This document shows positions 514-64,000 of a DNA stretch of 64,000 bases, in pieces. The first letter of the stretch is position 1. Each line of letters starts with the position of its first letter. Under the pieces are notes generated by a model. The model was not told the origin of the DNA. It worked only from the letters and a program-made list of their open reading frames with translations, and ran no database searches. A program made the position numbers and the translations under genes. Source of the DNA: the human T2T-CHM13v2.0 reference genome, Homo sapiens; assembly GCA_009914755.4 (NCBI GenBank), contig CP086569.2, forward strand, positions 10,816,001 to 10,880,000, read 5' to 3'.

Positions 514-685
514 AGTAGAATGCAAAGGGCTCCAAATATCCACTTGGAGATTCTACAAAAAGAGTTTCAAAACCGCTCTGTCAAATGATAGGTTGAACTC
601 CCGGAGGTGAATACACACATCACAAAGAGGTTTCTCAGCATGCTTCTGTGTAGTTTTTATGTAAACATATTTCCGTTTCTATCAT
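514..685. other. Exact match to the Y-alphoid sexing-PCR primer pair (Y22 forward, Y11 reverse complement), giving a 172-bp amplicon; once per HOR copy
   Basis: 514-533 reads agtagaatgcaaagggctcc. 666-685 reads catatttccgtttctatcat, which is the reverse complement of atgatagaaacggaaatatg. I recall both primers from memory as the Y-specific alphoid primers that give a ~170-bp product. The same pair recurs at +6127 and then at +5784/5785. Copy 9 has a G>A change at 47477 and copy 6 a T>C change at 30278 inside the primer sites. Confidence 0.75.
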
Positions 686-2708: not shown

Positions 2709-3050
2709 TTGAAGATATTTCTTTTTCCACAATAGGCCTCAAAGCGCTCAAAATATCCACTTTCACATTCTACAAAAAGAGTGTTTCAAAACTGCACAAT
2801 CAAAAGATAGTTCAACTCTGTGAGTTGAATGCGCACAACAAAAAGATGTTTCTCAGAATTATTTCTGTGTAGTTTTTATGTGAAGATATTTCCTTTTCCA
2901 CAATGGGCCTCAAAGTGCTCCAAATATCCACTTGCAGATTCTACAAAAAGAGTTTTCCAAAACTGCTCCATCAAAAGAAAGCTTCACCTCTGTGAGATGA
3001 ATGCACATACCACAAAGAAGTGTCTCAGAATGCTTCTGTGTAGTTTTTAT
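2709..3050 (-). repeat. Two-monomer (~342 bp) segment present only in the 36-mer form (copy 1)
   Basis: Alignment by eye of copy 1 (2631-3110) against copy 3 (14881-15010). The short form joins ...tgtgtagttttta directly to tgtgaagatatttccttttccacaataagaccc and skips about 342 bp. Confidence 0.85.
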
Positions 3051-12100: not shown

Positions 12101-12254
12101 CACAAATGGCTCTAAATACCCACTTACATTTTCCACAAAAAGAGAGTTTCAAAACTGCTCTACCAAAGGTAAGTTTAACGCTGTGAGTTAAGAACATCAC
12201 AAAGAAGTTTCTCAGAATGCTTCTGTGTAGTTCTTACGTAAAGATATTTCCTTT
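6128..12254 (-). repeat. HOR copy 2, long form (36 monomers, 6127 bp)
   Basis: Offset 6127 to the next copy (ORF 6183 to 12310). It contains the two-monomer segment at about 8836-9177. It differs from copy 1 at only a few SNVs, e.g. 4891 T vs 11018 A and 4988 T vs 11115 C. Confidence 0.9.
8836..9177 (-). repeat. Two-monomer segment specific to the 36-mer form (copy 2)
   Basis: Same sequence as 2709-3050 shifted by 6127 bp. Confidence 0.85.
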
Positions 12255-41177: not shown

Positions 41178-44100
41178 TACACAATAGGCAGAAAAGTGCT
41201 CCAAATATCCACTTGAAGATTCTACAAAAACCGTGTTTCAAAACTGCCGAATCAAAAGAAAGGTTCAACTCTGTGAGATGAATGCACACATAACAAAGGA
41301 GTTTCTCAGAATGCTTCTGTGTAGCTTTTATATGAAGACATTTAGTTTTCCACAACAGGCCTCAAAGCTCTCTCCATATCCACTTGCAGATTCTACCGAA
41401 AGAGTGCTTCCAAACTGCTCAATCAAAAGAGACATTCAAATCTGTGAGGTGAATGCAGACATCGTAAAGAAGTTTCTCAGAATGCTTCTGTGTATTTTTT
41501 GTGTGAAGTTATTCGTTTTTGCACCATAGGCCTCCAAGCGTTCTAAATATCCACTTCTAGATTCTACAAAAAGAGAGTTTCAAAACTACTCAAACAAAAG
41601 GTTCAATTCTGTGAGTTGAAAGCAAACATCACAAAGAAGTTTCTCAGAATGCGTCTGTGTAGTTTTTATGTGAAGATATTTCCTTTTCACAGTAGAATGC
41701 AAAGGGCTCCAAATATCCACTTGGAGATTCTACAAAAAGAGTTTCAAAACCGCTCTGTCAAATGATAGGTTGAACTCCCGGAGGTGAATACACACATCAC
41801 AAAGAGGTTTCTCAGCATGCTTCTGTGTAGTTTTTATGTAAACATATTTCCGTTTCTATCATAGGCCTCAAAGTGCTCCAAATATTCACTTGTACATTCT
41901 ACCAAACGAGTATTTCAAAACTGCTCAATCAAATGGAAGGTTCAAAACCGTGACATGAATGCCCACATCACAAAGTAGTTTCTCAGAATGCTTCTGTGTA
42001 GTTTTTATGTGAAGATATTTCCTTTTCCACAACAGCGTGCAAAACGCTTCAAATATGCCCTTAGAGATTCCACAAAAAGAGTGTTTCCAAACTACTCAAA
42101 TCAAAAAATGATTTCAACTCTGTGAGATGAATGCACACATCACAAACTAGTTTCTCAGAATGTTTCTGCCTGGTTCTCATGCGAAGATAGTTCCTTTTTC
42201 ACCATAGGCCGCAATGTACTCCAAATATCCACCTGCAGATTCTACAAAAGTGAGTTTCAAAACTGCTCTATCAAAAGATCAGTTCGTCTCTGTGAGTTGA
42301 ATGCATACATCAAAAAGAAGCTTCTCAAAATGCTTCTGTGTGGTTTTTCGGTGAAGATAGTTCTTTTTCTACCATAGGTCTCAAACCACTCCAAATATCC
42401 ACTTGTAGATTCTATAAAAAGGAATGTTCAAAATTGCTCAATAAAAATAAAGTTTCAACACCGTGAGATGAGTGCACAAATCACAAAGAAGTTTCTCAAA
42501 ATGCTTCTGGGTAGTTTTTCTGTGAAGATAGTTCCTTTTCTACCATGGGCCACAAAGGGCTCCAAATACCCACTTGCAGATTCTACAAAAAGAGAGTTTC
42601 ACAACTGCTCTATCAAACAATATGTTCAACTTTGTGGGTTGAACACAAATATCACAAGAATTTTCTCCCAATGCTTCTGTGTAGTTTTTATGTGAAGACA
42701 TTTCTTTTCCCTCCATAGTCCACAAAGTGCTCCAAATATCCACTTACATATTCTAGAAAAAGATTGCTTGGAAACTGCACAATGAAAAGAAAGGTTCAAA
42801 TATATGAGATGAATGCACACATCACAAAGAAGTTTCTCAGAATCTCTCTGTGTAATTTTTATGTGAAGATATTTCCTTTCCCACCTTAGGTCTTAAAACG
42901 CTCCAAATATCCACTTGCAGATACTACAAGAAGATTGTTTCAAAACTGCACAAAAAAAGAAATGTTCAATTCTGTTTGATGAATGCACACATCACAAAGA
43001 AGTTTCTCAGAATGCTTCTCTGTAGTTTTTATGTGAAGATATTTCCTTTTCCACAATAGGCCTCAAAGGGCTCCAAATATCCACTTCCAGATTCTATGAA
43101 AAGAATATTTCCAAACTGCTCAATCATAGGAAATGTTCAACTCTGTGAGATGAATGCACACATCACAAGAAATTTCTCAGAATCCTTCAGTGTAGGTTTT
43201 ATGAGAAGATAATTCCTTTTCCACAATAGTTCTCAAAGCACTCAAAATATCCACTTGCAGATTCTACAAAAGGAGTATTTCAAAACTGCTCAATCAAAAG
43301 AAAGTTTCAACTCTGTGAGATGAATGGACACATCACAAAGAAGTTTCTCAGAATGCTTCTGTGTAGTATTTTTGTGAAGATATTTCTTTTCCACCATAGA
43401 CCGCCAGGGGACACAAATATCCACTTTCAGATTCTACAACAAGAGAGGTTCAAAACTACTCGATCAAGAGATGGTTTCAACTATGTGAGTTGAATGCACA
43501 CATCACAAAGAACTATGTCGGAATTCTTCTGTGTAGTTTTTATGTGAAGATATTTCCTTTTCCACAATAGACGTCAAAGTGATCCAGATATCCACTTGCA
43601 GATTCCACAAAAAGAGTGTTTCAAAAGTGCACAACCAAAAGAAAGGTTCAACTAGGTGAGATGAATGCACACATCAGAAGGAAGTTTCTCAGAATGCTTC
43701 TGCATAGCTTTTAAGGGAAGATACTTCCTTTTCCAACATAGGCCTCAAAGCACTCCAAATATCCTCCTGGAGATACCACAAAAAGAGTGTTTGCAAACTG
43801 CTCAATCAAAAGAAAGATTTAACTCTGTGAGATGAATCCACACATGACAAAGAAGTTTCTCAGAATGCTTCTGTGTAGTTTTTATGTGAAGATATTTCCT
43901 TTTCCACAATAAGACCCAAAAGGCTCCAAATATTCACTTGCAGATTCTAAAAAAAACAGTGTTTCAAAACTGCTCAATCAAAAGATAGTTCAACTCTGTG
44001 AGAAGAATGCTCACATCACTGAGAAGTTTCTCAGAATGCTTCTGTGTAGTTTTTATATGAAGATATTTCCTTTCCCACCGTAGGCCACAAAAGGCTCCAA

Positions 44101-46962
44101 ATATCCACTTGCAGATACTATGAAAAGAGAGTTTCAAAACTGCTCATTCAAAAGATAGGTTCAACTCTGTGGTTTGAATGCACACAGCACAAAGAAGTTT
44201 CACAGAATGTGTCTGTGTAGTTTTTATGTGCGGATGTTTCCTTTTCCACCATATGCCTAAATATTTCCCAATTTCCACTTGCAGATTCCACAAGAAGAGT
44301 GTTTCAAAACTGCTGTATCAAATAAAGTTGAACTCTGTGAGGTGAATGCACACAGCACAAAATGGTTTCTCAGAATGCTTCCTTGTTGTTTTTATATGAA
44401 GATGTTTCCTTTTCAACAATAGGCCTCAAAGTGCTTCAAATGTCCACTTGCAGATTCTACAAAAAGAGTGTTTCAAAACTGCTCAATCAAAAGAAAGGTT
44501 CGACTCTGGGAAATTAATGCACACATCACAAAGAAGTTTCTCAGCTTCTGTGTAGTTTTCATGTGAAGTTATTTCCTTTTCCACAATAGGCCGCAAAGGG
44601 CTCCAAATATCAACTTACAGATTCTAGGAAAAGAGAGTTTCAAAACTGCTCTACGAAAAGATAGGTTGAACTCTGTGAGATGAATGCACACATCACAAAG
44701 AAGTTTCTCAGAATGCATCTGTGTAGTTTTTACGGGAAGACATTTCCTTTTCCACCATCTTCCACAAAGGTCTCCAAGTAACCACTTGCAGATTCTACAG
44801 AAAGACACTTTAAAAACTGCTCTATCAAAAGATCAGTTCAAGTCTGTGGTTTGAATGCACACATCACAAAGAATTTTCTCAGAATGCTTCTGTGTAGTTT
44901 TCATATGAAGATATTTCCTTTTCCACCATAGGCCTCAAAGCACTCCAAATATCCACTTGCAGATTCTACAAAAAGAGATTTTCAAAACTAGTCAATCAAA
45001 AGAAAGGTTCAACTCTGTCAGTTGAATGCACATATCACAAACAAGTTTCTCGGAATGCGTCTGTGTAGTTTTTATGTGAAGATATTTCCTTCTCCACAAC
45101 AGGCCTCAAAGTGCTCCGAATATCCACTTGCAGATTTTACTAAAGAGTGTTTCCAAACTGCTCAATCAAGAGGAAGTTTCAAGTCTGTGAGCTGAACGCA
45201 CACATCACAAAGTAGTTTCTGAGAATGCTTCTGTGTAGTTTTTATGTGAAGATGTTTCCTTTTCCACCATAGGCTGCAAAGGGCTCCAAATATCCACTTG
45301 CAGATTCTACAAAAAGAGAGTTTCAAAAGTGCTCTATCAAAAGATAGGTTCAACTATGTGATATGAATGCACACATCACAAAGTAGTTTCTCAGAATGCT
45401 TCTGTGTAGTTTTTATGTAAAGATATTTCCTTTTCCACCATAGGCCTCAAAGCACTCCAAATATCCACTTGCAGATTCTACAAAAAGAGATTTTCAAAAC
45501 TATTTAATCAAAAGAAAGGTTCAAATCTGTCAGTTGAAGGTACATATCACAAACAAGTTTATTGGAATGCTTCTGTGTAGTTTTTATGTGAAGATATTTC
45601 CTTTTCCACAACAGGCCTCAAGGTGCTCCAAATATCCACTTGCAGATTTCACTAAAAGTGTGTTTCCAAGCTGCTCAATCAAGAGGAAGTTTCAAGTCTG
45701 TGAGGTGAATGCACACATTACAAAGAAGTTACTGAGAATGCTTCTGTGTAGTTTTTATGTGAAGATATTTCCTTTTCCACCGCAGGCCTCAAAGCGCTGC
45801 AAATATCCACTTGCAGATTCTACAAAAAGAGAGTTTCAAAACTGCTGTATCAAAAGATAGGGTCAACTCTGCGAGTTGAATAAACACATCACAAATAAGT
45901 TTCTGGGAACGCTTCTGTATAGTTTTATGTGAATATATTTCCTTTTCCACCATATGCCTCAAAGCACTCCAAATATCCACTTGCACATTATAGAAACATA
46001 GTCTTTCAAAACTTGTCAATCAAAGAAAGGTTCAACTCCGTGAGATGAGTGCACACATCACAGAGAAGTTTCTCGGAATGTTTCTGTGTAGTTTTTATGT
46101 GAAGATATTGCCTTTTCCACAATAGGCCCCAAAGCGTTCCAAATGTCCAATTGCAGATTCCACAAAAAAAGTTTTTTAAAACTGCTCAATCAAATGATAG
46201 ATTAAACTCTGTGAGATTAGTGCACACATGTCAAAAAAGTTTCTCAGAATGCTTCTGTGTACTTTTTAGGGGAAGATATTTCCTTTTCCACCATCGGCCA
46301 CAAAGGACTCCAAATAACCACATGCAGATTCTAGTAACACAGAGTTTCAAAACTGCTCTATCAAAAGATAAGTTCAACTCTGAGAGTTTAGTGCAACCAT
46401 CGTGAAGAAGTTTCTCAGAATGCTTCTGAGTAGTGTTTATGTGAAGATATTTCCTTTTCCACCATAGGCCTGAAAGCCCTCCAAATATCCACTTGCAGAT
46501 CCTACAAAAAGAAAGTTTCGAAATGCTCTCTCAAACGATAGTTTCGACTCTGTGGTATGAATACACACATCACAAAGAAGTTTCTCAGAATGCTTCTGTG
46601 TAGTTTTTAAATGAAGATATTTCTTTTTCCACCATAGGCCTCAAAGCACTCCAAATATGCACTTCCAGATTCTACAAAAAGAGTGTTTCAGAACTGCTCA
46701 ATCAAAAGGAAGGTTCCAGTCTGAGACAAATACACACATCAAAAGGTAGTTTCTCAGAATGCTTCTGTGTAGTTTTTATGTGAAGATATTTTCCTTTCCA
46801 CCATAGGCCACAAATGGCTCTAAATACCCACTTACATTTTCCACAAAAAGAGAGTTTCAAAACTGCTCTACCAAAGGTAAGTTTAACGCTGTGAGTTAAG
46901 AACATCACAAAGAAGTTTCTCAGAATGCTTCTGTGTAGTTCTTACGTAAAGATATTTCCTTT
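41178..46962 (-). repeat. HOR copy 8, short form (34 monomers, 5785 bp)
   Basis: Offset 5785. Private SNVs at 46139 (T>C) and 46145 (A>G). Confidence 0.9.
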
Positions 46963-49900
46963 TACACAATAGGCAGAAAAGTGCTCCAAATATCCACTTG
47001 AAGATTCTACAAAAACCGTGTTTCAAAACTGCCGAATCAAAAGAAAGGTTCAACTCTGTGAGATGAATGCACACATAACAAAGGAGTTTCTCAGAATGCT
47101 TCTGTGTAGCTTTTATATGAAGACATTTAGTTTTCCACAACAGGCCTCAAAGCTCTCTCCATATCCACTTGCAGATTCTACCGAAAGAGTGCTTCCAAAC
47201 TGCTCAATCAAAAGAGACATTCAAATCTGTGAGGTGAATGCAGACATCGTAAAGAAGTTTCTCAGAATGCTTCTGTGTATTTTTTGTGTGAAGTTATTCG
47301 TTTTTGCACCATAGGCCTCCAAGCGTTCTAAATATCCACTTCTAGATTCTACAAAAAGAGAGTTTCAAAACTACTCAAACAAAAGGTTCAATTCTGTGAG
47401 TTGAAAGCAAACATCACAAAGAAGTTTCTCAGAATGCGTCTGTGTAGTTTTTATGTGAAGATATTTCCTTTTCACAATAGAATGCAAAGGGCTCCAAATA
47501 TCCACTTGGAGATTCTACAAAAAGAGTTTCAAAACCGCTCTGTCAAATGATAGGTTGAACTCCCGGAGGTGAATACACACATCACAAAGAGGTTTCTCAG
47601 CATGCTTCTGTGTAGTTTTTATGTAAACATATTTCCGTTTCTATCATAGGCCTCAAAGTGCTCCAAATATTCACTTGTACATTCTACCAAACGAGTATTT
47701 CAAAACTGCTCAATCAAATGGAAGGTTCAAAACTGTGACATGAATGCCCACATCACAAAGTAGTTTCTCAGAATGCTTCTGTGTAGTTTTTATGTGAAGA
47801 TATTTCCTTTTCCACAACAGCGTGCAAAACGCTTCAAATATGCCCTTAGAGATTCCACAAAAAGAGTGTTTCCAAACTACTCAAATCAAAAAATGATTTC
47901 AACTCTGTGAGATGAATGCACACATCACAAACTAGTTTCTCAGAATGTTTCTGCCTGGTTCTCATGCGAAGATAGTTCCTTTTTCACCATAGGCCGCAAT
48001 GTACTCCAAATATCCACCTGCAGATTCTACAAAAGTGAGTTTCAAAACTGCTCTATCAAAAGATCAGTTCGTCTCTGTGAGTTGAATGCATACATCAAAA
48101 AGAAGCTTCTCAAAATGCTTCTGTGTGGTTTTTCGGTGAAGATAGTTCTTTTTCTACCATAGGTCTCAAACCACTCCAAATATCCACTTGTAGATTCTAT
48201 AAAAAGGAATGTTCAAAATTGCTCAATAAAAATAAAGTTTCAACACCGTGAGATGAGTGCACAAATCACAAAGAAGTTTCTCAAAATGCTTCTGGGTAGT
48301 TTTTCTGTGAAGATAGTTCCTTTTCTACCATGGGCCACAAAGGGCTCCAAATACCCACTTGCAGATTCTACAAAAAGAGAGTTTCACAACTGCTCTATCA
48401 AACAATATGTTCAACTTTGTGGGTTGAACACAAATATCACAAGAATTTTCTCCCAATGCTTCTGTGTAGTTTTTATGTGAAGACATTTCTTTTCCCTCCA
48501 TAGTCCACAAAGTGCTCCAAATATCCACTTACATATTCTAGAAAAAGATTGCTTGGAAACTGCACAATGAAAAGAAAGGTTCAAATATATGAGATGAATG
48601 CACACATCACAAAGAAGTTTCTCAGAATCTCTCTGTGTAATTTTTATGTGAAGATATTTCCTTTCCCACCTTAGGTCTTAAAACGCTCCAAATATCCACT
48701 TGCAGATACTACAAGAAGATTGTTTCAAAACTGCACAAAAAAAGAAATGTTCAATTCTGTTTGATGAATGCACACATCACAAAGAAGTTTCTCAGAATGC
48801 TTCTCTGTAGTTTTTATGTGAAGATATTTCCTTTTCCACAATAGGCCTCAAAGGGCTCCAAATATCCACTTCCAGATTCTATGAAAAGAATATTTCCAAA
48901 CTGCTCAATCATAGGAAATGTTCAACTCTGTGAGATGAATGCACACATCACAAGAAATTTCTCAGAATCCTTCAGTGTAGGTTTTATGAGAAGATAATTC
49001 CTTTTCCACAATAGTTCTCAAAGCACTCAAAATATCCACTTGCAGATTCTACAAAAGGAGTATTTCAAAACTGCTCAATCAAAAGAAAGGTTCAACTCTG
49101 TGAGATGAATGGACACATCACAAAGAAGTTTCTCAGAATGCTTCTGTGTAGTATTTTTGTGAAGATATTTCTTTTCCACCATAGACCGCCAGGGGACACA
49201 AATATCCACTTTCAGATTCTACAACAAGAGAGGTTCAAAACTACTCGATCAAGAGATGGTTTCAACTATGTGAGTTGAATGCACACATCACAAAGAACTA
49301 TGTCGGAATTCTTCTGTGTAGTTTTTATGTGAAGATATTTCCTTTTCCACAATAGACGTCAAAGTGATCCAGATATCCACTTGCAGATTCCACAAAAAGA
49401 GTGTTTCAAAAGTGCACAACCAAAAGAAAGGTTCAACTAGGTGAGATGAATGCACACATCAGAAGGAAGTTTCTCAGAATGCTTCTGCATAGCTTTTAAG
49501 GGAAGATACTTCCTTTTCCAACATAGGCCTCAAAGCACTCCAAATATCCTCCTGGAGATACCACAAAAAGAGTGTTTGCAAACTGCTCAATCAAAAGAAA
49601 GATTTAACTCTGTGAGATGAATCCACACATGACAAAGAAGTTTCTCAGAATGCTTCTGTGTAGTTTTTATGTGAAGATATTTCCTTTTCCACAATAAGAC
49701 CCAAAAGGCTCCAAATATTCACTTGCAGATTCTAAAAAAAACAGTGTTTCAAAACTGCTCAATCAAAAGATAGTTCAACTCTGTGAGAAGAATGCTCACA
49801 TCACTGAGAAGTTTCTCAGAATGCTTCTGTGTAGTTTTTATATGAAGATATTTCCTTTCCCACCGTAGGCCACAAAAGGCTCCAAATATCCACTTGCAGA

Positions 49901-52747
49901 TACTATGAAAAGAGAGTTTCAAAACTGCTCATTCAAAAGATAGGTTCAACTCTGTGGTTTGAATGCACACAGCACAAAGAAGTTTCACAGAATGTGTCTG
50001 TGTAGTTTTTATGTGCGGATGTTTCCTTTTCCACCATATGCCTAAATATTTCCCAATTTCCACTTGCAGATTCCACAAGAAGAGTGTTTCAAAACTGCTG
50101 TATCAAATAAAGTTGAACTCTGTGAGGTGAATGCACACAGCACAAAATGGTTTCTCAGAATGCTTCCTTGTTGTTTTTATATGAAGATGTTTCCTTTTCA
50201 ACAATAGGCCTCAAAGTGCTTCAAATGTCCACTTGCAGATTCTACAAAAAGAGTGTTTCAAAACTGCTCAATCAAAAGAAAGGTTCGACTCTGGGAAATT
50301 AATGCACACATCACAAAGAAGTTTCTCAGCTTCTGTGTAGTTTTCATGTGAAGTTATTTCCTTTTCCACAATAGGCCGCAAAGGGCTCCAAATATCAACT
50401 TACAGATTCTAGGAAAAGAGAGTTTCAAAACTGCTCTACGAAAAGATAGGTTGAACTCTGTGAGATGAATGCACACATCACAAAGAAGTTTCTCAGAATG
50501 CATCTGTGTAGTTTTTACGGGAAGACATTTCCTTTTCCACCATCTTCCACAAAGGTCTCCAAGTAACCACTTGCAGATTCTACAGAAAGACACTTTAAAA
50601 ACTGCTCTATCAAAAGATCAGTTCAAGTCTGTGGTTTGAATGCACACATCACAAAGAATTTTCTCAGAATGCTTCTGTGTAGTTTTCATATGAAGATATT
50701 TCCTTTTCCACCATAGGCCTCAAAGCACTCCAAATATCCACTTGCAGATTCTACAAAAAGAGATTTTCAAAACTAGTCAATCAAAAGAAAGGTTCAACTC
50801 TGTCAGTTGAATGCACATATCACAAACAAGTTTCTCGGAATGCGTCTGTGTAGTTTTTATGTGAAGATATTTCCTTCTCCACAACAGGCCTCAAAGTGCT
50901 CCGAATATCCACTTGCAGATTTTACTAAAGAGTGTTTCCAAACTGCTCAATCAAGAGGAAGTTTCAAGTCTGTGAGCTGAACGCACACATCACAAAGTAG
51001 TTTCTGAGAAGGCTTCTGTGTAGTTTTTATGTGAAGATGTTTCCTTTTCCACCATAGGCTGCAAAGGGCTCCAAATATCCACTTGCAGATTCTACAAAAA
51101 GAGAGTCTCAAAAGTGCTCTATCAAAAGATAGGTTCAACTATGTGATATGAATGCACACATCACAAAGTAGTTTCTCAGAATGCTTCTGTGTAGTTTTTA
51201 TGTAAAGATATTTCCTTTTCCACCATAGGCCTCAAAGCACTCCAAATATCCACTTGCAGATTCTACAAAAAGAGATGTTCAAAACTATTTAATCAAAAGA
51301 AAGGTTCAAATCTGTCAGTTGAAGGTACATATCACAAACAAGTTTATTGGAATGCTTCTGTGTAGTTTTTATGTGAAGATATTTCCTTTTCCACAACAGG
51401 CCTCAAGGTGCTCCAAATATCCACTTGCAGATTTCACTAAAAGTGTGTTTCCAAGCTGCTCAATCAAGAGGAAGTTTCAAGTCTGTGAGGTGAATGCACA
51501 CATTACAAAGAAGTTACTGAGAATGCTTCTGTGTAGTTTTTATGTGAAGATATTTCCTTTTCCACCGCAGGCCTCAAAGCGCTGCAAATATCCACTTGCA
51601 GATTCTACAAAAAGAGAGTTTCAAAACTGCTGTATCAAAAGATAGGGTCAACTCTGCGAGTTGAATAAACACATCACAAATAAGTTTCTGGGAACGCTTC
51701 TGTATAGTTTTATGTGAATATATTTCCTTTTCCACCATATGCCTCAAAGCACTCCAAATATCCACTTGCACATTATAGAAACATAGTCTTTCAAAACTTG
51801 TCAATCAAAGAAAGGTTCAACTCCGTGAGATGAGTGCACACATCACAGAGAAGTTTCTCGGAATGTTTCTGTGTAGTTTTTATGTGAAGATATTGCCTTT
51901 TCCACAATAGGCCTCAAAGCGTTCCAAATATCCAATTGCAGATTCCACAAAAAAAGTTTTTTAAAACTGCTCAATCAAATGATAGATTAAACTCTGTGAG
52001 ATTAGTGCACACATGTCAAAAAAGTTTCTCAGAATGCTTCTGTGTACTTTTTAGGGGAAGATATTTCCTTTTCCACCATCGGCCACAAAGGACTCCAAAT
52101 AACCACATGCAGATTCTAGTAACACAGAGTTTCAAAACTGCTCTATCAAAAGATAAGTTCAACTCTGAGAGTTTAGTGCAACCATCGTGAAGAAGTTTCT
52201 CAGAATGCTTCTGAGTAGTGTTTATGTGAAGATATTTCCTTTTCCACCATAGACCTGAAAGCCCTCCAAATATCCACTTGCAGATCCTACAAAAAGAAAG
52301 TTTCGAAATGCTCTCTCAAACGATAGTTTCGACTCTGTGGTATGAATACACACATCACAAAGAAGTTTCTCAGAATGCTTCTGTGTAGTTTTTAAATGAA
52401 GATATTTCTTTTTCCACCATAGGCCTCAAAGCACTCCAAATATGCACTTCCAGATTCTACAAAAAGAGTGTTTCAGAACTGCTCAATCAAAAGGAAGGTT
52501 CCAGTCTGAGACAAATACACACATCAAAAGGTAGTTTCTCAGAATGCTTCTGTGTAGTTTTTATGTGAAGATATTTTCCTTTCCACCATAGGCCACAAAT
52601 GGCTCTAAATACCCACTTACATTTTCCACAAAAAGAGAGTTTCAAAACTGCTCTACCAAAGGTAAGTTTAACGCTGTGAGTTAAGAACATCACAAAGAAG
52701 TTTCTCAGAATGCTTCTGTGTAGTTCTTACGTAAAGATATTTCCTTT
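46963..52747 (-). repeat. HOR copy 9, short form (34 monomers, 5785 bp)
   Basis: Offset 5785. Private SNVs at 47477 (G>A, inside the Y22 primer site), 51011 (T>G) and 52253 (G>A). Confidence 0.9.
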
Positions 52748-55700
52748 TACACAATAGGCAGAAAAGTGCTCCAAATATCCACTTGAAGATTCTACAAAAA
52801 CCGTGTTTCAAAACTGCCGAATCAAAAGAAAGGTTCAACTCTGTGAGATGAATGCACACATAACAAAGGAGTTTCTCAGAATGCTTCTGTGTAGCTTTTA
52901 TATGAAGACATTTAGTTTTCCACAACAGGCCTCAAAGCTCTCTCCATATCCACTTGCAGATTCTACCGAAAGAGTGCTTCCAAACTGCTCAATCAAAAGA
53001 GACATTCAAATCTGTGAGGTGAATGCAGACATCGTAAAGAAGTTTCTCAGAATGCTTCTGTGTATTTTTTGTGTGAAGTTATTCGTTTTTGCACCATAGG
53101 CCTCCAAGCGTTCTAAATATCCACTTCTAGATTCTACAAAAAGAGAGTTTCAAAACTACTCAAACAAAAGGTTCAATTCTGTGAGTTGAAAGCAAACATC
53201 ACAAAGAAGTTTCTCAGAATGCGTCTGTGTAGTTTTGATGTGAAGATATTTCCTTTTCACAGTAGAATGCAAAGGGCTCCAAATATCCACTTGGAGATTC
53301 TACAAAAAGAGTTTCAAAACCGCTCTGTCAAATGATAGGTTGAACTCCCGGAGGTGAATACACACATCACAAAGAGGTTTCTCAGCATGCTTCTGTGTAG
53401 TTTTTATGTAAACATATTTCCGTTTCTATCATAGGCCTCAAAGTGCTCCAAATATTCACTTGTACATTCTACCAAACGAGTATTTCAAAACTGCTCAATC
53501 AAATGGAAGGTTCAAAACCGTGACATGAATGCCCACATCACAAAGTAGTTTCTCAGAATGCTTCTGTGTAGTTTTTATGTGAAGATATTTCCTTTTCCAC
53601 AACAGCGTGCAAAACGCTTCAAATATGCCCTTAGAGATTCCACAAAAAGAGTGTTTCCAAACTACTCAAATCAAAAAATGATTTCAACTCTGTGAGATGA
53701 ATGCACACATCACAAACTAGTTTCTCAGAATGTTTCTGCCTGGTTCTCATGCGAAGATAGTTCCTTTTTCACCATAGGCCGCAATGTACTCCAAATATCC
53801 ACCTGCAGATTCTACAAAAGTGAGTTTCAAAACTGCTCTATCAAAAGATCAGTTCGTCTCTGTGAGTTGAATGCATACATCAAAAAGAAGCTTCTCAAAA
53901 TGCTTCTGTGTGGTTTTTCGGTGAAGATAGTTCTTTTTCTACCATAGGTCTCAAACCACTCCAAATATCCACTTGTAGATTCTATAAAAAGGAATGTTCA
54001 AAATTGCTCAATAAAAATAAAGTTTCAACACCGTGAGATGAGTGCACAAATCACAAAGAAGTTTCTCAAAATGCTTCTGGGTAGTTTTTCTGTGAAGATA
54101 GTTCCTTTTCTACCATGGGCCACAAAGGGCTCCAAATACCCACTTGCAGATTCTACAAAAAGAGAGTTTCACAACTGCTCTATCAAACAATATGTTCAAC
54201 TTTGTGGGTTGAACACAAATATCACAAGAATTTTCTCCCAATGCTTCTGTGTAGTTTTTATGTGAAGACATTTCTTTTCCCTCCATAGTCCACAAAGTGC
54301 TCCAAATATCCACTTACATATTCTAGAAAAAGATTGCTTGGAAACTGCACAATGAAAAGAAAGGTTCAAATATATGAGATGAATGCACACATCACAAAGA
54401 AGTTTCTCAGAATCTCTCTGTGTAATTTTTATGTGAAGATATTTCCTTTCCCACCTTAGGTCTTAAAACGCTCCAAATATCCACTTGCAGATACTACAAG
54501 AAGATTGTTTCAAAACTGCACAAAAAAAGAAATGTTCAATTCTGTTTGATGAATGCACACATCACAAAGAAGTTTCTCAGAATGCTTCTCTGTAGTTTTT
54601 ATGTGAAGATATTTCCTTTTCCACAATAGGCCTCAAAGGGCTCCAAATATCCACTTCCAGATTCTATGAAAAGAATATTTCCAAACTGCTCAATCATAGG
54701 AAATGTTCAACTCTGTGAGATGAATGCACACATCACAAGAAATTTCTCAGAATCCTTCAGTGTAGGTTTTATGAGAAGATAATTCCTTTTCCACAATAGT
54801 TCTCAAAGCACTCAAAATATCCACTTGCAGATTCTACAAAAGGAGTATTTCAAAACTGCTCAATCAAAAGAAAGGTTCAACTCTGTGAGATGAATGGACA
54901 CATCACAAAGAAGTTTCTCAGAATGCTTCTGTGTAGTATTTTTGTGAAGATATTTCTTTTCCACCATAGACCGCCAGGGGACACAAATATCCACTTTCAG
55001 ATTCTACAACAAGAGAGGTTCAAAACTACTCGATCAAGAGATGGTTTCAACTATGTGAGTTGAATGCACACATCACAAAGAACTATGTCGGAATTCTTCT
55101 GTGTAGTTTTTATGTGAAGATATTTCCTTTTCCACAATAGACGTCAAAGTGATCCAGATATCCACTTGCAGATTCCACAAAAAGAGTGTTTCAAAAGTGC
55201 ACAACCAAAAGAAAGGTTCAACTAGGTGAGATGAATGCACACATCAGAAGGAAGTTTCTCAGAATGCTTCTGCATAGCTTTTAAGGGAAGATACTTCCTT
55301 TTCCAACATAGGCCTCAAAGCACTCCAAATATCCTCCTGGAGATACCACAAAAAGAGTGTTTGCAAACTGCTCAATCAAAAGAAAGATTTAACTCTGTGA
55401 GATGAATCCACACATGACAAAGAAGTTTCTCAGAATGCTTCTGTGTAGTTTTTATGTGAAGATATTTCCTTTTCCACAATAAGACCCAAAAGGCTCCAAA
55501 TATTCACTTGCAGATTCTAAAAAAAACAGTGTTTCAAAACTGCTCAATCAAAAGATAGTTCAACTCTGTGAGAAGAATGCTCACATCACTGAGAAGTTTC
55601 TCAGAATGCTTCTGTGTAGTTTTTATATGAAGATATTTCCTTTCCCACCGTAGGCCACAAAAGGCTCCAAATATCCACTTGCAGATACTATGAAAAGAGA

Positions 55701-58532
55701 GTTTCAAAACTGCTCATTCAAAAGATAGGTTCAACTCTGTGGTTTGAATGCACACAGCACAAAGAAGTTTCACAGAATGTGTCTGTGTAGTTTTTATGTG
55801 CGGATGTTTCCTTTTCCACCATATGCCTAAATATTTCCCAATTTCCACTTGCAGATTCCACAAGAAGAGTGTTTCAAAACTGCTGTATCAAATAAAGTTG
55901 AACTCTGTGAGGTGAATGCACACAGCACAAAATGGTTTCTCAGAATGCTTCCTTGTTGTTTTTATATGAAGATGTTTCCTTTTCAACAATAGGCCTCAAA
56001 GTGCTTCAAATGTCCACTTGCAGATTCTACAAAAAGAGTGTTTCAAAACTGCTCAATCAAAAGAAAGGTTCGACTCTGGGAAATTAATGCACACATCACA
56101 AAGAAGTTTCTCAGCTTCTGTGTAGTTTTCATGTGAAGTTATTTCCTTTTCCACAATAGGCCGCAAAGGGCTCCAAATATCAACTTACAGATTCTAGGAA
56201 AAGAGAGTTTCAAAACTGCTCTACGAAAAGATAGGTTGAACTCTGTGAGATGAATGCACACATCACAAAGAAGTTTCTCAGAATGCATCTGTGTAGTTTT
56301 TACGGGAAGATATTTCCTTTTCCACCATCTTCCACAAAGGTCTCCAAGTAACCACTTGCAGACTCTACAGAAAGACACTTTAAAAACTGCTCTATCAAAA
56401 GATCAGTTCAAGTCTGTGGTTTGAATGCACACATCACAAAGAATTTTCTCAGAATGCTTCTGTGTAGTTTTCATATGAAGATATTTCCTTTTCCACCATA
56501 GGCCTCAAAGCACTCCAAATATCCACTTGCAGATTCTACAAAAAGAGATTTTCAAAACTAGTCAATCAAAAGAAAGGTTCAACTCTGTCAGTTGAATGCA
56601 CATATCACAAACAAGTTTCTCGGAATGCGTCTGTGTAGTTTTTATGTGAAGATATTTCCTTCTCCACAACAGGCCTCAAAGTGCTCCGAATATCCACTTG
56701 CAGATTTTACTAAAGAGTGTTTCCAAACTGCTCAATCAAGAGGAAGTTTCAAGTCTGTGAGCTGAACGCACACATCACAAAGTAGTTTCTGAGAATGCTT
56801 CTGTGTAGTTTTTATGTGAAGATGTTTCCTTTTCCACCATAGGCTGCAAAGGGCTCCAAATATCCACTTGCAGATTCTACAAAAAGAGAGTCTCAAAAGT
56901 GCTCTATCAAAAGATAGGTTCAACTATGTGATATGAATGCACACATCACAAAGTAGTTTCTCAGAATGCTTCTGTGTAGTTTTTATGTAAAGATATTTCC
57001 TTTTCCACCATAGGCCTCAAAGCACTCCAAATATCCACTTGCAGATTCTACAAAAAGAGATTTTCAAAACTATTTAATCAAAAGAAAGGTTCAAATCTGT
57101 CAGTTGAAGGTACATATCACAAACAAGTTTATTGGAATGCTTCTGTGTAGTTTTTATGTGAAGATATTTCCTTTTCCACAACAGGCCTCAAGGTGCTCCA
57201 AATATCCACTTGCAGATTTCACTAAAAGTGTGTTTCCAAGCTGCTCAATCAAGAGGAAGTTTCAAGTCTGTGAGGTGAATGCACACATTACAAAGAAGTT
57301 ACTGAGAATGCTTCTGTGTAGTTTTTATGTGAAGATATTTCCTTTTCCACCGCAGGCCTCAAAGCGCTGCAAATATCCACTTGCAGATTCTACAAAAAGA
57401 GAGTTTCAAAACTGCTGTATCAAAAGATAGGGTCAACTCTGCGAGTTGAATAAACACATCACAAATAAGTTTCTGGGAACGCTTCTGTATAGTTTTATGT
57501 GAATATATTTCCTTTTCCACCATATGCCTCAAAGCACTCCAAATATCCACTTGCACATTATAGAAACATAGTCTTTCAAAACTTGTCAATCAAAGAAAGG
57601 TTCAACTCCGTGAGATGAGTGCACACATCACAGAGAAGTTTCTCGGAATGTTTCTGTGTAGTTTTTATGTGAAGATATTGCCTTTTCCACAATAGGCCTC
57701 AAAGCGTTCCAAATATCCAATTGCAGATTCCACAAAAAAAGTTTTTTAAAACTGCTCAATCAAATGATAGATTAAACTCTGTGAGATTAGTGCACACATG
57801 TCAAAAAAGTTTCTCAGAATGCTTCTGTGTACTTTTTAGGGGAAGATATTTCCTTTTCCACCATCGGCCACAAAGGACTCCAAATAACCACATGCAGATT
57901 CTAGTAACACAGAGTTTCAAAACTGCTCTATCAAAAGATAAGTTCAACTCTGAGAGTTTAGTGCAACCATCGTGAAGAAGTTTCTCAGAATGCTTCTGAG
58001 TAGTGTTTATGTGAAGATATTTCCTTTTCCACCATAGGCCTGAAAGCCCTCCAAATATCCACTTGCAGATCCTACAAAAAGAAAGTTTCGAAATGCTCTC
58101 TCAAACGATAGTTTCGACTCTGTGGTATGAATACACACATCACAAAGAAGTTTCTCAGAATGCTTCTGTGTAGTTTTTAAATGAAGATATTTCTTTTTCC
58201 ACCATAGGCCTCAAAGCACTCCAAATATGCACTTCCAGATTCTACAAAAAGAGTGTTTCAGAACTGCTCAATCAAAAGGAAGGTTCCAGTCTGAGACAAA
58301 TACACACATCAAAAGGTAGTTTCTCAGAATGCTTCTGTGTAGTTTTTATGTGAAGATATTTTCCTTTCCACCATAGGCCACAAATGGCTCTAAATACCCA
58401 CTTACATTTTCCACAAAAAGAGAGTTTCAAAACTGCTCTACCAAAGGTAAGTTTAACGCTGTGAGTTAAGAACATCACAAAGAAGTTTCTCAGAATGCTT
58501 CTGTGTAGTTCTTACGTAAAGATATTTCCTTT
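52748..58532 (-). repeat. HOR copy 10, short form (34 monomers, 5785 bp)
   Basis: Offset 5785 (ORF 52803 to 58588). Confidence 0.9.
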
Positions 58533-61500
58533 TACACAATAGGCAGAAAAGTGCTCCAAATATCCACTTGAAGATTCTACAAAAACCGTGTTTCAAAACT
58601 GCCGAATCAAAAGAAAGGTTCAACTCTGTGAGATGAATGCACACATAACAAAGGAGTTTCTCAGAATGCTTCTGTGTAGCTTTTATATGAAGACATTTAG
58701 TTTTCCACAACAGGCCTCAAAGCTCTCTCCATATCCACTTGCAGATTCTACCGAAAGAGTGCTTCCAAACTGCTCAATCAAAAGAGACATTCAAATCTGT
58801 GAGGTGAATGCAGACATCGTAAAGAAGTTTCTCAGAATGCTTCTGTGTATTTTTTGTGTGAAGTTATTCGTTTTTGCACCATAGGCCTCCAAGCGTTCTA
58901 AATATCCACTTCTAGATTCTACAAAAAGAGAGTTTCAAAACTACTCAAACAAAAGGTTCAATTCTGTGAGTTGAAAGCAAACATCACAAAGAAGTTTCTC
59001 AGAATGCGTCTGTGTAGTTTTGATGTGAAGATATTTCCTTTTCACAGTAGAATGCAAAGGGCTCCAAATATCCACTTGGAGATTCTACAAAAAGAGTTTC
59101 AAAACCGCTCTGTCAAATGATAGGTTGAACTCCCGGAGGTGAATACACACATCACAAAGAGGTTTCTCAGCATGCTTCTGTGTAGTTTTTATGTAAACAT
59201 ATTTCCGTTTCTATCATAGGCCTCAAAGTGCTCCAAATATTCACTTGTACATTCTACCAAACGAGTATTTCAAAACTGCTCAATCAAATGGAAGGTTCAA
59301 AACTGTGACATGAATGCCCACATCACAAAGTAGTTTCTCAGAATGCTTCTGTGTAGTTTTTATGTGAAGATATTTCCTTTTCCACAACAGCGTGCAAAAC
59401 GCTTCAAATATGCCCTTAGAGATTCCACAAAAAGAGTGTTTCCAAACTACTCAAATCAAAAAATGATTTCAACTCTGTGAGATGAATGCACACATCACAA
59501 ACTAGTTTCTCAGAATGTTTCTGCCTGGTTCTCATGCGAAGATAGTTCCTTTTTCACCATAGACCGCAATGTACTCCAAATATCCACCTGCAGATTCTAC
59601 AAAAGTGAGTTTCAAAACTGCTCTATCAAAAGATCAGTTCGTCTCTGTGAGTTGAATGCATACATCAAAAAGAAGCTTCTCAAAATGCTTCTGTGTGGTT
59701 TTTCGGTGAAGATAGTTCTTTTTCTACCATAGGTCTCAAACCACTCCAAATATCCACTTGTAGATTCTATAAAAAGGAATGTTCAAAATTGCTCAATAAA
59801 AATAAAGTTTCAACACCGTGAGATGAGTGCACAAATCACAAAGAAGTTTCTCAAAATGCTTCTGGGTAGTTTTTCTGTGAAGATAGTTCCTTTTCTACCA
59901 TGGGCCACAAAGGGCTCCAAATACCCACTTGCAGATTCTACAAAAAGAGAGTTTCACAACTGCTCTATCAAACAATATGTTCAACTTTGTGGGTTGAACA
60001 CAAATATCACAAGAATTTTCTCCCAATGCTTCTGTGTAGTTTTTATGTGAAGACATTTCTTTTCCCTCCATAGTCCACAAAGTGCTCCAAATATCCACTT
60101 ACATATTCTAGAAAAAGATTGCTTGGAAACTGCACAATGAAAAGAAAGGTTCAAATATATGAGATGAATGCACACATCACAAAGAAGTTTCTCAGAATCT
60201 CTCTGTGTAATTTTTATGTGAAGATATTTCCTTTCCCACCTTAGGTCTTAAAACGCTCCAAATATCCACTTGCAGATACTACAAGAAGATTGCTTCAAAA
60301 CTGCACAAAAAAAGAAATGTTCAATTCTGTTTGATGAATGCACACATCACAAAGAAGTTTCTCAGAATGCTTCTCTGTAGTTTTTATGTGAAGATATTTC
60401 CTTTTCCACAATAGGCCTCAAAGGGCTCCAAATATCCACTTCCAGATTCTATGAAAAGAATATTTCCAAACTGCTCAATCATAGGAAATGTTCAACTCTG
60501 TGAGATGAATGCACACATCACAAGAAATTTCTCAGAATCCTTCAGTGTAGGTTTTATGAGAAGATAATTCCTTTTCCACAATAGTTCTCAAAGCACTCAA
60601 AATATCCACTTGCAGATTCTACAAAAGGAGTATTTCAAAACTGCTCAATCAAAAGAAAGGTTCAACTCTGTGAGATGAATGGACACATCACAAAGAAGTT
60701 TCTCAGAATGCTTCTGTGTAGTATTTTTGTGAAGATATTTCTTTTCCACCATAGACCGCCAGGGGACACAAATATCCACTTTCAGATTCTACAACAAGAG
60801 AGGTTCAAAACTACTCGATCAAGAGATGGTTTCAACTATGTGAGTTGAATGCACACATCACAAAGAACTATGTCGGAATTCTTCTGTGTAGTTTTTATGT
60901 GAAGATATTTCCTTTTCCACAATAGACGTCAAAGTGATCCAGATATCCACTTGCAGATTCCACAAAAAGAGTGTTTCAAAAGTGCACAACCAAAAGAAAG
61001 GTTCAACTAGGTGAGATGAATGCACACATCAGAAGGAAGTTTCTCAGAATGCTTCTGCATAGCTTTTAAGGGAAGATACTTCCTTTTCCAACATAGGCCT
61101 CAAAGCACTCCAAATATCCTCCTGGAGATCCCACAAAAAGAGTGTTTGCAAACTGCTCAATCAAAAGAAAGATTTAACTCTGTGAGATGAATCCACACAT
61201 CACAAAGAAGTTTCTCAGAATGCTTCTGTGTAGTTTTTAATTGAAGATATTTCTTTTTCCACAATAGGCCTCAAAGCGCTCAAAATATCCACTTTCACAT
61301 TCTACAAAAAGAGTGTTTCAAAACTGCACAATCAAAAGATAGTTCAACTCTGTGAGTTGAATGCGCACAACAAAAAGATGTTTCTCGGAATTATTTCTGT
61401 GTAGTTTTTATGTGAAGATATTTCCTTTTCCACAATGGGCCTCAAAGTGCTCCAAATATCCACTTGCAGATTCTACAAAAAGAGTTTTCCAAAACTGCTC

Positions 61501-62620
61501 CATCAAAAGAAAGTTTCACCTCTGTGAGATGAATGCACATACCACAAAGAAGTGTCTCAGAATGCTTCTGTGTAGTTTTTATGTGAAGATATTTCCTTTT
61601 CCACAATAAGCCCCAAAAGGCTCCAAATATTCACTTGCAGATTCTAAAAAAACAGTGTTTCAAAACTGCTCAATCAAAAGAAAGGTTCAACTCTGTGAGA
61701 AGAATGCTCACATCACTGAGAAGTTTCTCAGAATGCTTCTGTGTAGTTTTTATATGAAGATATTTCCTTTCCCACCGTAGGCCACAAAAGGCTCCAAATA
61801 TCCACTTGCAGATACTATGAAAAGAGAGTTTCAAAACTGCTCATTCAAAAGATAGGTTCAACTCTGTGGTTTGAATGCACACAGCACAAAGAAGTTTCAC
61901 AGAATGTGTCTGTGTAGTTTTTATGTGCGGATGTTTCCTTTTCCACCATATGCCTAAATATTTCCCAATTTCCACTTGCAGATTCTACAAGAAGAGTGTT
62001 TCAAAACTGCTGTATCAAATAAAGTTGAACTCTGTGAGGTGAATGCACACAGCACAAAATGGTTTCTCAGAATGCTTCCTTGTTGTTTTTATATGAAGAT
62101 GTTTCCTTTTCAACAATAGGCCTCAAAGTGCTTCAAATGTCCACTTGCAGATTCTACAAAAAGAGTGTTTCAAAACTGCTCAATCAAAAGAAAGGTTCGA
62201 CTCTGGGAAATTAATGCACACATCACAAAGAAGTTTCTCAGCTTCTGTGTAGTTTTCATGTGAAGTTATTTCCTTTTCCACAATAGGCCGCAAAGGGCTC
62301 CAAATATCAACTTACAGATTCTAGGAAAAGAGAGTTTCAAAACTGCTCTACGAAAAGATAGGTTGAACTCTGTGAGATGAATGCACACATCACAAAGAAG
62401 TTTCTCAGAATGCATCTGTGTAGTTTTTACGGGAAGATATTTCCTTTTCCACCATCTTCCACAAAGGTCTCCAAGTAACCACTTGCAGATTCTACAGAAA
62501 GACACTTTAAAAACTGCTCTATCAAAAGATCAGTTCAAGTCTGTGGTTGGAATGCACACATCACAAAGAATTTTCTCAGAATGCTTCTGTGTAGTTTTCA
62601 TATGAAGATATTTTCTTTTC
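58533..62620 (-). repeat. HOR copy 11, partial (~4.1 kb), long-form type with the two-monomer segment; more diverged copy at the array edge
   Basis: It is in phase with the earlier copies. It again contains the two-monomer segment (ORF 61361-61609 is homologous to 2829-3077 and 8956-9204). It carries more private substitutions than the internal copies (e.g. 59573, 60293, 61201-61210 aatccacacatcac, 61611 aagcccc, 62549 gtggttgg). Homology to the HOR is lost at about 62620-62640. Confidence 0.8.
61241..61581 (-). repeat. Two-monomer segment specific to the 36-mer form (copy 11, diverged version)
   Basis: Homologous to 2709-3050 but with several substitutions. The downstream monomer reads tagtttttatgtgaag, which matches the junction of the short form rather than the tatatgaag seen in copies 1 and 2. 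Confidence 0.8.
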
Positions 62621-64000
62621 CACCATAGGCCTCAAAGTGCTCCAAATATCCACTTGCAGATTCTACAAAAAGAGTGTTTCAAAACTGCTCAATCAAAAGA
62701 AAGGTACAACTCTTTTTGATGAATTCACTAATAACAAAGACGTTTCTCACAATGCTTCTCTGTAGTTTTTATGTGAAGATCTTTCCTTTTCTACCATAGG
62801 CATCAAAGCACTACAAATATCCAATAGCAGATTCTACAAAAAGAGTGTTTCAAAACTGTTCAATCAAATGAAACGTTCAACCCTGTGAGATGAATGCAGA
62901 CATTAAAAGATAGTTTCTCATTATGGTTCTGGGTAGTTTTTATGTGAACTTATTTCCTTTTCCAAAATAGGCCGGAAAGTGCTCCAAGTATCCACTTGCA
63001 GATTCTACAAAAAGAGATTCAAAACTCCTCCATCAAAAGATAGGTTGAACTCCGTGAGATTAATGCATACATCACAACGAAGTTTCTCAGAGGGCTTCAT
63101 TGTAGTTTTATGGGAAGATATTTCCTTTTCCACTATATGTCTCAAAGATATCCAAATATACACTTGCAGATTCTACAAAATGAGAGTTTCAAAACTGCTC
63201 TGTCAAAAAAAGAGGTTCAGCTGCATGAGTTGAATGCACACATCACAAAGAAGTTTCTCAGAATGCTTCTGTGTATTTTTTATGTTAAGATATTTTCTTT
63301 TCCACCATAGGCTGCAAAGGGCTCCAAATATCCACTTGCAGATTCTACAAAAAGAGATTTTCAAAACTGCTCAATCAAAAGAAAGGCTCAACTCTGTGAG
63401 ATGAATGCACACAAAACAAAGGAGTTTCTGCAAATGCTTCTGTGTAGTTTTTAAGTGAAGATACTTCCTTTTCCACAATAGGTCTCGAAGCCCTCCAAAT
63501 ATCCAAATGTGGATTCTACAAAAAGAGTGTTTCAAAACTGCTCAATCAAATGGAAGCTTCAACTCTAAGAAATGAATACACACCTGACAAAGAAGTTTCT
63601 CAGAATGATTTTGTGTAGTTTTTTGGGGAAGGCGTTTTCCTTTCCACCATCGGTCACAAAGGCCTCCAAATAACCACATGCAGATTCTACACAAGGAGAG
63701 TTTCAAAACTGCTCTGTCAAAAGATAGGTTCAGCTCTGCGAGTTGAATGCACACATCACAGACAAGTTTCTCAGAATGCTTCTGTGTAGTTTTCATGTGA
63801 AGATATTTCCTTTTCCACTTTAGGCCACAAAGCACTCCAAATATCCACTTGCAGAAACTACAAAAAGAGTCTTTCAAAACTGCTCAAGCAAAAGAAAAGT
63901 TCAACTCTGTGAGATGAATGCACACATCACAAAGGAGTTTCTGAGAATGCTTCTGTGTAGTTTTTATGTGAAATATTTCCTTTTCCACCATAGGCTTCAA
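62621..64000 (-). repeat. Diverged (monomeric or different-family) alpha-satellite monomers flanking the HOR array
   Basis: The ~171-bp alphoid periodicity and signature motifs are still present (tccaaatatccacttgcagattctacaaaaagag, ttctcagaatgcttctgtgtagttttt). The monomers are far more diverged from the HOR and from each other (e.g. 62700-62760 aaaggtacaactctttttgatgaattcactaataacaaagacgtttctcac). The upstream HOR does not recur here. Confidence 0.8.

What the first reader, a model, noticed from the sequence alone, without database searches (positions are those of the whole stretch)
62400..64000. Array boundary: the HOR ends at about 62.6 kb and is followed by diverged alpha satellite, and the last HOR copy is degraded
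Copy 11 matches the HOR up to about 62620. After that the monomers keep the alphoid hallmarks but are strongly diverged, and no HOR periodicity reappears. Copy 11 carries more private substitutions than copies 1-10, with differences visible at 59573, 60293, about 61204, 61611, 61640, 62549 and 62595. This is the expected gradient of reduced homogenisation toward an array edge. The junction is a natural place to look for non-satellite insertions or the transition to pericentromeric sequence just beyond the window.
Basis: seen in the sequence. Interest (0 to 1): 0.5.

Follow-up and report, generated by a model that had tools for sequence, protein, structure and literature searches.

The report
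Last, ancestral-type repeat of Y centromere
This is the q-arm end of the human Y-chromosome centromere satellite (DYZ3): the repeat pattern stops at 62.6 kb because the last copy keeps ten old monomers that every inner copy has lost, a structure already published for this assembly.

Summary
The whole window is human Y-centromere alpha satellite (DYZ3 / S4CYH1L): 376 monomers in unbroken register. In my own phase there are two 36-mer copies (the first cut by the window start), eight 34-mer copies of about 5,785 bp, and one last copy.

The observation largely holds. Near-perfect repeat identity ends at 62,614-62,675. The 7.8 monomers after that are only 73-87% alike, and no repeat period returns inside the window. 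The last copy has 10 private differences against 0-3 in the others (Poisson P about 4e-9).

"Degraded" overstates it, because that copy is still 99.66% identical. Its largest difference, "about 61204", is a retained 342-bp two-monomer segment, not substitutions.

The copy order, the distances between landmarks, two published marker sequences and a to-the-base coordinate fit place the window at T2T-CHM13v2.0 chrY:10,816,001-10,880,000. There the last copy is the published terminal "complete 46-mer" (HOR #54).

The break at 62,663 is the monomer 26|25 junction. The "diverged" tail is monomers 25-18 of ten ancestral monomers deleted from all inner copies. By that annotation, repeat homology resumes about 0.35 kb past the window and the array ends at least 2.6 kb further on.

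Verdict: already known, low interest.

The parts
1..12806 (-). 36-monomer (6,127 bp) DYZ3 HOR copies. They are the tail of HOR #43 (1-552), #44 (553-6679) and #45 (6680-12806) in the published phase, the right part of the '36-mer island'.
   Evidence: Lag 6127. A 342-bp segment is present here relative to the 34-mers. The published island end, chrY:10,828,806, equals window 12,806.
12807..59084 (-). Eight canonical 34-monomer DYZ3 HOR copies (#46-#53), 5,784-5,785 bp each, 99.87-100% identical to the consensus over monomers 46-26.
   Evidence: The Y-alphoid primer pair hits once per copy with a 172-bp amplicon.
59085..62662 (-). Monomers 46-26 of the terminal long HOR copy (#54, the 'complete 46-mer'). 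It is 99.66% identical to the array consensus and carries all 10 (+2) private differences of the last copy.
   Evidence: The published monomer 31/32 sequence maps to 61575-61750, straddling the derived 32|31 border.
61213..61554 (-). Two-monomer (342 bp) segment (part of monomer 34, all of 33, part of 32). It is retained in the terminal copy and the 36-mers, and deleted in the 34-mers, which have the 32/34 hybrid monomer.
   Evidence: MAFFT gap at columns 3857-4199 in all eight 34-mers. BLAST segment jump. Published HOR definitions.
62602..62675 (.). Interval holding the point where the terminal copy departs from the inner copies. The annotated monomer 26|25 border is 62,662|62,663. The first discordant base is 62,614. 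The junction lies in the most conserved part of the monomer, and register is kept.
   Evidence: Alignment, mismatch list, monomer borders.
62663..64000 (-). Monomers 25 to 18 (18 is cut by the window end) of the ten extra monomers (25-16) found only in the flanking long HOR copies. All are A-type, none has a CENP-B box, and they are 73-87% alike.
   Evidence: The identification with monomers 25-16 rests on the published annotation and on the position of the junction.

Best explanation
The window is the q-arm (right) end region of the human Y-centromere DYZ3 (S4CYH1L) array, most likely T2T-CHM13v2.0 chrY:10,816,001-10,880,000. Alpha satellite runs on the reverse strand.

The HOR match ends at 62.6 kb because the last copy is the published terminal 'complete 46-mer'. 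It keeps ten monomers (25-16) between monomers 26 and 15, and it keeps the two-monomer segment 32-34. The inner copies are deletion derivatives: 46-mer to 36-mer to 34-mer. They were later amplified and homogenised.

The tail at 62,663-64,000 is therefore monomers 25-18 of that relic copy, not yet the non-HOR flank.

The excess of private differences in this copy, rising toward the ten-monomer block, reflects its exclusion from homogenisation. An edge copy has partners on one side only. The heterologous block should also stop unequal exchange and conversion tracts.

Shown here: the structure, the junction position, the excess of differences and the identity of the array. Inferred: the mechanism of exclusion and the direction of the deletions. 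Taken from the literature and not seen here: the HOR resumes beyond the window.
For: Identity of the array:
- 171-bp array throughout, with a 5,785-bp period.
- The Y-alphoid primer pair listed in PMC2789407 and PMC6737488 hits once per copy and gives the 172-bp amplicon.
- There are no CENP-B boxes, and A-type boxes occur in 366 monomers, including every tail monomer.

Match to the published T2T-Y structure (Rhie et al. supplement):
- That structure reads HORs #42-45 36-mers, #46-53 eight 34-mers, #54 46-mer, on the reverse strand. The window reads 36, 36, 8 x 34, then a long copy.
- If the window starts at a multiple of 64,000, the published island end 10,828,806 falls on window 12,806, exactly a monomer border.
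- The published monomer 31/32 sequence maps to 61575-61750 across the derived 32|31 border. Probe C2 for monomer 6 maps where that numbering predicts, at 58125.
- The break lies six monomers after the 32-34 segment, which is the 26|15 junction.

Reduced homogenisation:
- 10 private differences against a mean of 0.7, P = 4e-9. There are none in 57,356-59,084.
- 2 lie in the first half and 9 in the second half of monomers 46-26, p = 0.03.
- The private alleles are a mix of consensus-like (probably ancestral) and non-consensus (probably new) bases.

Independent report: long 44/46-mer variants at the array ends of T2T-CHM13v2.0 Y (PMC12428378).
Against: - The window stops after 7.8 of the ten extra monomers, so I could not see the HOR resume.
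- Four public-collection scans for tail sequence and one for a Y-alphoid primer found nothing to extend it.
- The ten extra monomers occur nowhere else in the window, so their identity as monomers 25-16 rests on junction position and on the literature.
- The source's array end (10,882,579) is about 510 bp, or three monomers, short of what a 46-mer plus a 1-mer would reach from the window geometry. I cannot explain this.
- The within-copy trend is weak (p about 0.03-0.04, 11 sites).
Confidence: 0.88

Rival explanations
1. One reading: the HOR array truly ends at about 62.6 kb. Everything to the right is the non-HOR monomeric (SF4) pericentromeric flank, and no HOR homology returns.
For: Inside the window nothing HOR-like returns. 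Tail monomers match HOR monomers no better than HOR monomers match each other (0.82-0.89 against a mean of 0.81) and show no colinear order.
Against: - The break sits exactly at the 26|15 junction, where the published terminal copy carries ten extra monomers.
- The order of copies and a to-the-base coordinate fit identify the published locus.
- That annotation places 15 more HOR monomers plus one after the block.
- Only 7.8 monomers remain in the window, so absence of a return is expected either way.
Confidence: 0.07
2. The window comes from a different Y haplotype or assembly that shares the 36-mer / 34-mer layout but has a different, unpublished right-edge structure.
For: Y centromere arrays vary widely between haplogroups. 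RP11 and HG002 differ in the body of the array.
Against: - The coordinate fit to T2T-CHM13v2.0 is exact, at a 64,000-multiple start.
- The count of eight 34-mers between the island and the terminal copy matches HG002.
- The right-flank 46-mer is reported to be the same in HG002 and RP11, so even another haplotype would probably share it.
Confidence: 0.04
3. The extra differences in the last copy are assembly or consensus errors at a repeat edge, not real divergence.
For: Two of the differences are an indel pair around a homopolymer (61645 and 61684), a typical error type. The RP11 ONT assembly is known to have such errors.
Against: - Ten of the differences are substitutions, several of them toward the monomer-family consensus.
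- The structural features (two-monomer segment, ten-monomer block) are reported independently in HG002 and RP11.
- The neighbouring copies are clean.
Confidence: 0.01

Closest known systems
[quoted passage not shown] 2023, supplement)
   Same: - Position after eight 34-mers that follow the 36-mer island.
- Reverse-strand orientation.
- Retained monomers 32-34.
- Extra monomers starting right after monomer 26.
- Coordinates fit to the base.
   Different: No difference was found in the part that can be seen. Monomers 17-1 of the copy and the solitary monomer 46 lie outside the window. The source's array-end coordinate is about three monomers short of the monomer count it gives.
Generic HOR-array edge: homogeneous core, increasingly divergent HORs toward the periphery, then monomeric alpha satellite layers (Altemose 2022 model; Hallast et al. 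2023 for the Y)
   Same: The edge copy is less homogenised than the core copies, and older alpha satellite lies distal to it.
   Different: There is no multi-copy decay. Nine or ten copies at 99.87-100% are followed by a single relic copy at 99.66% with a different structure. The sequence change at 62.6 kb is an indel inside a HOR copy, not the HOR-to-monomeric transition.
[quoted passage not shown]
   Same: The last copy shares the two-monomer segment with the 36-mers at 1-12,806. Only 2 differences occur in those 342 bp.
   Different: It does not share the 36-mers' point variants at alignment columns 2795, 3317 and 4227. Unlike the 36-mers, it has not lost monomers 25-16.

Membership tests
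Human DYZ3 / S4CYH1L alpha-satellite HOR array (Y centromere) | Head-to-tail monomers of about 171 bp, organised in a 34-monomer HOR of about 5.8 kb with >99% identity between copies | tested here: met
   TRF period 171 over 16-64000. Lag 5785. Copies are 99.8-100% identical.
Human DYZ3 / S4CYH1L alpha-satellite HOR array (Y centromere) | Y-specific alphoid PCR primer pair giving a 172-bp product | tested here: met
   Both primers hit 11 times, once per copy, 172 bp apart. The primers are listed as Y alphoid, and the 172-bp product is stated, in PMC2789407 and PMC6737488.
Human DYZ3 / S4CYH1L alpha-satellite HOR array (Y centromere) | SF4 composition: A-type monomers and no CENP-B boxes | tested here: met
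   No matches to TTCGNNNNANNCGGG on either strand. 366 A-type box matches. M1 is listed as type A in PMC4496801.
Human DYZ3 / S4CYH1L alpha-satellite HOR array (Y centromere) | Published S4CYH1L sequence markers (monomer 31/32 segment; monomer-6 probe C2) | tested here: met
   The 172-nt published segment hits once per copy at 96-97%; the gaps are homopolymer errors known in RP11. Probe C2 hits exactly, 10 times.
Terminal 46-mer HOR copy of the Y array (right / q-arm flank) | Lies directly after the run of eight 34-mers that follows the four-copy 36-mer island | tested here: met
   compared. The coordinate fit is exact.
Terminal 46-mer HOR copy of the Y array (right / q-arm flank) | Monomers 32, 33 and 34 intact, with no 32/34 hybrid | tested here: met
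   The 342-bp segment is present at 61,213-61,554. Monomer table.
Terminal 46-mer HOR copy of the Y array (right / q-arm flank) | Ten additional monomers (25-16) between monomers 26 and 15, followed by monomers 15-1 | tested here: inconclusive
   Non-HOR monomers do start exactly at the end of monomer 26. The window ends after 7.8 of them, so the count of ten and the return of monomers 15-1 could not be seen. Extension searches failed.
   This needs sequence beyond 64,000. The published annotation puts the array end at chrY:10,882,579, which is 2,579 bp past the inferred window end.
   Differences from consensus per copy are 4, 3, 4, 1, 0, 2, 4, 4, 2, 1, 11. There is no trend before the last copy.

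The most novel reading that the evidence does not exclude
Inside the terminal relic copy, unhomogenised differences are absent for the first 0.5 kb and then grow denser toward the heterologous ten-monomer block: 2 in the first half and 9 in the second half of 3.5 kb. The adjoining 1.7 kb of the previous copy has none. If this is a real decay and not chance, it measures how far exchange or conversion with inner copies reaches toward a heterology in a human centromere, roughly 1.5-2 kb. That could be tested across the dozens of assembled Y centromeres.
Probability: 0.25. Interest if true: 0.3.

Novelty: already known. Interest (0 to 1): 0.1.

Why it matters
It matters little beyond correct annotation. 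The feature is a textbook-type relic at the edge of a centromeric array, and it is already described for this assembly.

Its value is as a record of how the Y-centromere repeat evolved, from 46-mer to 36-mer to 34-mer. It is also a caution: a loss of higher-order periodicity near a window edge can be an indel inside a repeat copy and not the end of the array.

Tried and rejected
- **Extending the window.** I made exact-match scans for two tail-specific sequences in metagenome contigs and in bacterial/archaeal genome contigs. I also scanned viral contigs for one tail sequence and for one Y-alphoid primer. All found nothing.
- **Tail as a diverged copy of the missing HOR monomers.** In-register identity is about 0.82 and then background. 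Best hits are scattered over unrelated monomers, mostly one consensus-like monomer, so there is no colinearity. Rejected.
- **Short HOR inside the tail.** Pairwise identity is at most 0.87, so there is none at periods of 1-7 monomers.
- **HOR resuming after only seven extra monomers.** This would have reconciled the published array-end coordinate. The monomer at 63,845-64,000 does not match monomer 15. Rejected.
- **Private alleles all ancestral, or all new.** They are mixed, so neither simple story holds.
- **A first BLAST pass** forced a 93.8% alignment through to 63,133. That was an artefact of register slipping across the 342-bp segment. A stricter search resolved it.

Full report
**What the window is.** Tandem Repeats Finder reports one 171-bp array over 16-64,000. 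A conserved anchor finds 376 monomers spaced 166-172 bp apart with no interruption, including across 62.6 kb. The strongest long-range lag is 5,785 bp, or 34 monomers.

The Y-chromosome alphoid primer pair ATGATAGAAACGGAAATATG / AGTAGAATGCAAAGGGCTCC hits once per repeat copy, 11 times each. The sites are 172 bp apart. PMC2789407 lists the pair as Y alphoid and PMC6737488 gives a 172-bp product.

There is no CENP-B box on either strand. Almost every monomer, including all tail monomers, has the A-type box. This fits the SF4 class assigned to DYZ3 (PMC4496801). The window is human DYZ3 / S4CYH1L.

**Copy structure.** A strict BLAST of one unit against the window, plus a MAFFT alignment of the copies, gives the following in my own phase:
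- one partial and one full 6,127-bp copy (1-11,077);
- eight copies of 5,784-5,785 bp (11,078-57,355);
- a last copy starting at 57,356.

The 6,127-bp copies and the last copy share a 342-bp (two-monomer) segment that the eight middle copies lack. In the last copy it lies at about 61,213-61,554. It is structural, not a cluster of substitutions.

**The break.** I compared the last copy with the full 36-mer copy at 4,951. It is near-identical up to 62,613. Mismatches then appear at 62,614, 62,638/39, 62,675/76 and 62,687/88, and become dense after 62,706.

The last HOR-specific variants it shares are near 62,601. The first 60 bp after the monomer border are the most conserved part of alpha satellite, which explains the apparently gradual decay.

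Beyond that point the 171-bp windows find only inconsistent lags, at 0.63-0.90 identity. The tail monomers are 73-87% alike. They match HOR monomers at 0.82-0.89 at best, with no colinear order. That is about as far apart as the HOR monomers are from each other (mean 0.81). So the observed end of HOR identity at about 62.62 kb is correct.

**Divergence of the last copy.**
- In 4,917 shared columns the last copy has 11 differences from the consensus, 10 of them private. The other copies have 0-3 private differences.
- Two more differences lie in the two-monomer segment, judged against the two 36-mers.
- In the published HOR phase, every one of these falls in the final HOR (59,085-62,662). None falls in 57,356-59,084.
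- Over monomers 46-26 the count is 10 private against a mean of 0.7, Poisson P = 4e-9. Identity is 99.66% against 99.87-100%.
- Inside that copy, 2 differences lie in the first half and 9 in the second (binomial p = 0.03, KS p = 0.04).
- Using the monomer family as a rough outgroup, the private alleles are mixed. Some are family-consensus, probably ancestral states the array has since replaced: 61201, 61611, 61682, 61986, 62639. Some are non-consensus, probably new mutations never erased: 59563, 60293, 61387, 62549, 62614.
- Across the other ten copies there is no trend toward the edge.

**What it really is.** The T2T-Y paper's supplement (bioRxiv 10.1101/2022.12.01.518724, supplementary file 1) describes the HG002 Y centromere as follows:
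- The array lies at chrY:10,565,751-10,882,579 on the reverse strand.
- It has 55 HORs: #1 is a 42-mer, #42-45 are four 36-mers (10,804,299-10,828,806), #46-53 are eight 34-mers, #54 is a "complete 46-mer" and #55 is a single monomer 46. The remaining copies are 34-mers.
- The 36-mer is 1-15_26-46. The 34-mer is 1-15_26-31_32/34_35-46.
- The two flanking copies carry ten additional monomers (16-25).

The window shows exactly this order: 36, 36, eight 34-mers, then a long copy.

- **Coordinate fit.** If the window starts at 169 x 64,000 + 1 = chrY:10,816,001, the published end of the 36-mer island falls on window 12,806. That is exactly a monomer border, 13 bp into my anchor. From memory, this is the usual HumAS monomer phase.
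- **Numbering.** Counting down from there puts monomer 26 at 62,492-62,662 and monomer 25 at 62,663.
- **First marker check.** The published monomer 31/32 segment maps to 61,575-61,750, across my derived 32|31 border at 61,643/61,644.
- **Second marker check.** The monomer-6 probe C2 maps at 58,125, inside the predicted monomer 6 of HOR #53.

The break is therefore the point where the inner copies join monomer 26 to monomer 15, and where the terminal copy still has monomers 25-16. The tail in the window is monomers 25 to 18.

An independent analysis also reports 44/46-mer variants at the ends of the T2T-CHM13v2.0 Y array (PMC12428378).

**Consequences for the finding.** The array does not end at 62.6 kb according to the published annotation. 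About two more unique monomers, then monomers 15-1 and a solitary monomer 46, should follow beyond the window.

After that come about 5 kb of non-HOR SF4 alpha satellite with one Alu at chrY:10,883,788-10,884,095, and then HSat3 (Hallast et al.). I could not read that sequence, and the searches I made of the available public collections found no matching contig.

One detail is unexplained. From the window geometry, a 46-mer plus a 1-mer would end near chrY:10,883,089. The source gives 10,882,579, which is three monomers less.

**Mechanism (inferred).** The source proposes the order 46-mer, then 36-mer by loss of ten monomers, then 34-mer by loss of two. Hallast et al. likewise call the 36-mer ancestral to the 34-mer.

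The inner copies are kept alike by unequal exchange and conversion. A terminal copy has partners on one side only. Here it also abuts a block with no partner, so exchange tracts should seldom reach its distal part. That fits three things seen here:
- clean sequence in the proximal part of the copy and in the neighbouring copy;
- differences accumulating toward the block;
- a mix of retained ancestral bases and uncorrected new ones.

**Verdict.** The interpretation as an array boundary is only partly right. The feature is already published for this very assembly, so novelty is nil and interest is low.

Noticed in passing
window 1-12806: The left end of the window holds 36-monomer (6,127 bp) HOR copies, the right part of the published four-copy '36-mer island'. 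The 34-mer next to them shares one of their point variants (alignment column 3317, G in the first three copies). This fits the published 'green' HOR haplotype that extends two copies either side of the island.
   Followed up: partly
window 34216-51570 (alignment columns 1948, 3304, 5083, 5135): Three or four adjacent 34-mer copies share point variants absent from the rest. They form small local haplotype blocks, as expected from short-range duplication or exchange between neighbours.
   Followed up: no
window 61645-61684: The terminal copy has a 1-bp deletion in an A-run (8 to 7 A) and a compensating 1-bp insertion 38 bp later (GATA-G to GAAAGG). An ungapped comparison therefore shows a false cluster of about 22 mismatches.
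   Followed up: yes
beyond the window (chrY:10,880,001-10,883,100 by inference): The published array end (chrY:10,882,579) is about 510 bp, or three monomers, short of where a 46-mer plus a 1-mer would end by the window geometry. The left side of the published coordinates is self-consistent for a 42-mer.
   Followed up: partly
whole window: No CENP-B box is present on either strand, in line with the known absence of CENP-B boxes on the human Y. 366 of 376 monomers keep an A-type box within 4 mismatches.
   Followed up: yes
window 30274-30293 and 47476-47495: Single-copy point variants fall inside the classic Y-alphoid PCR primer sites, one in each primer and in different HOR copies. This has no practical consequence but shows intra-array polymorphism at diagnostic sites.
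   Followed up: no
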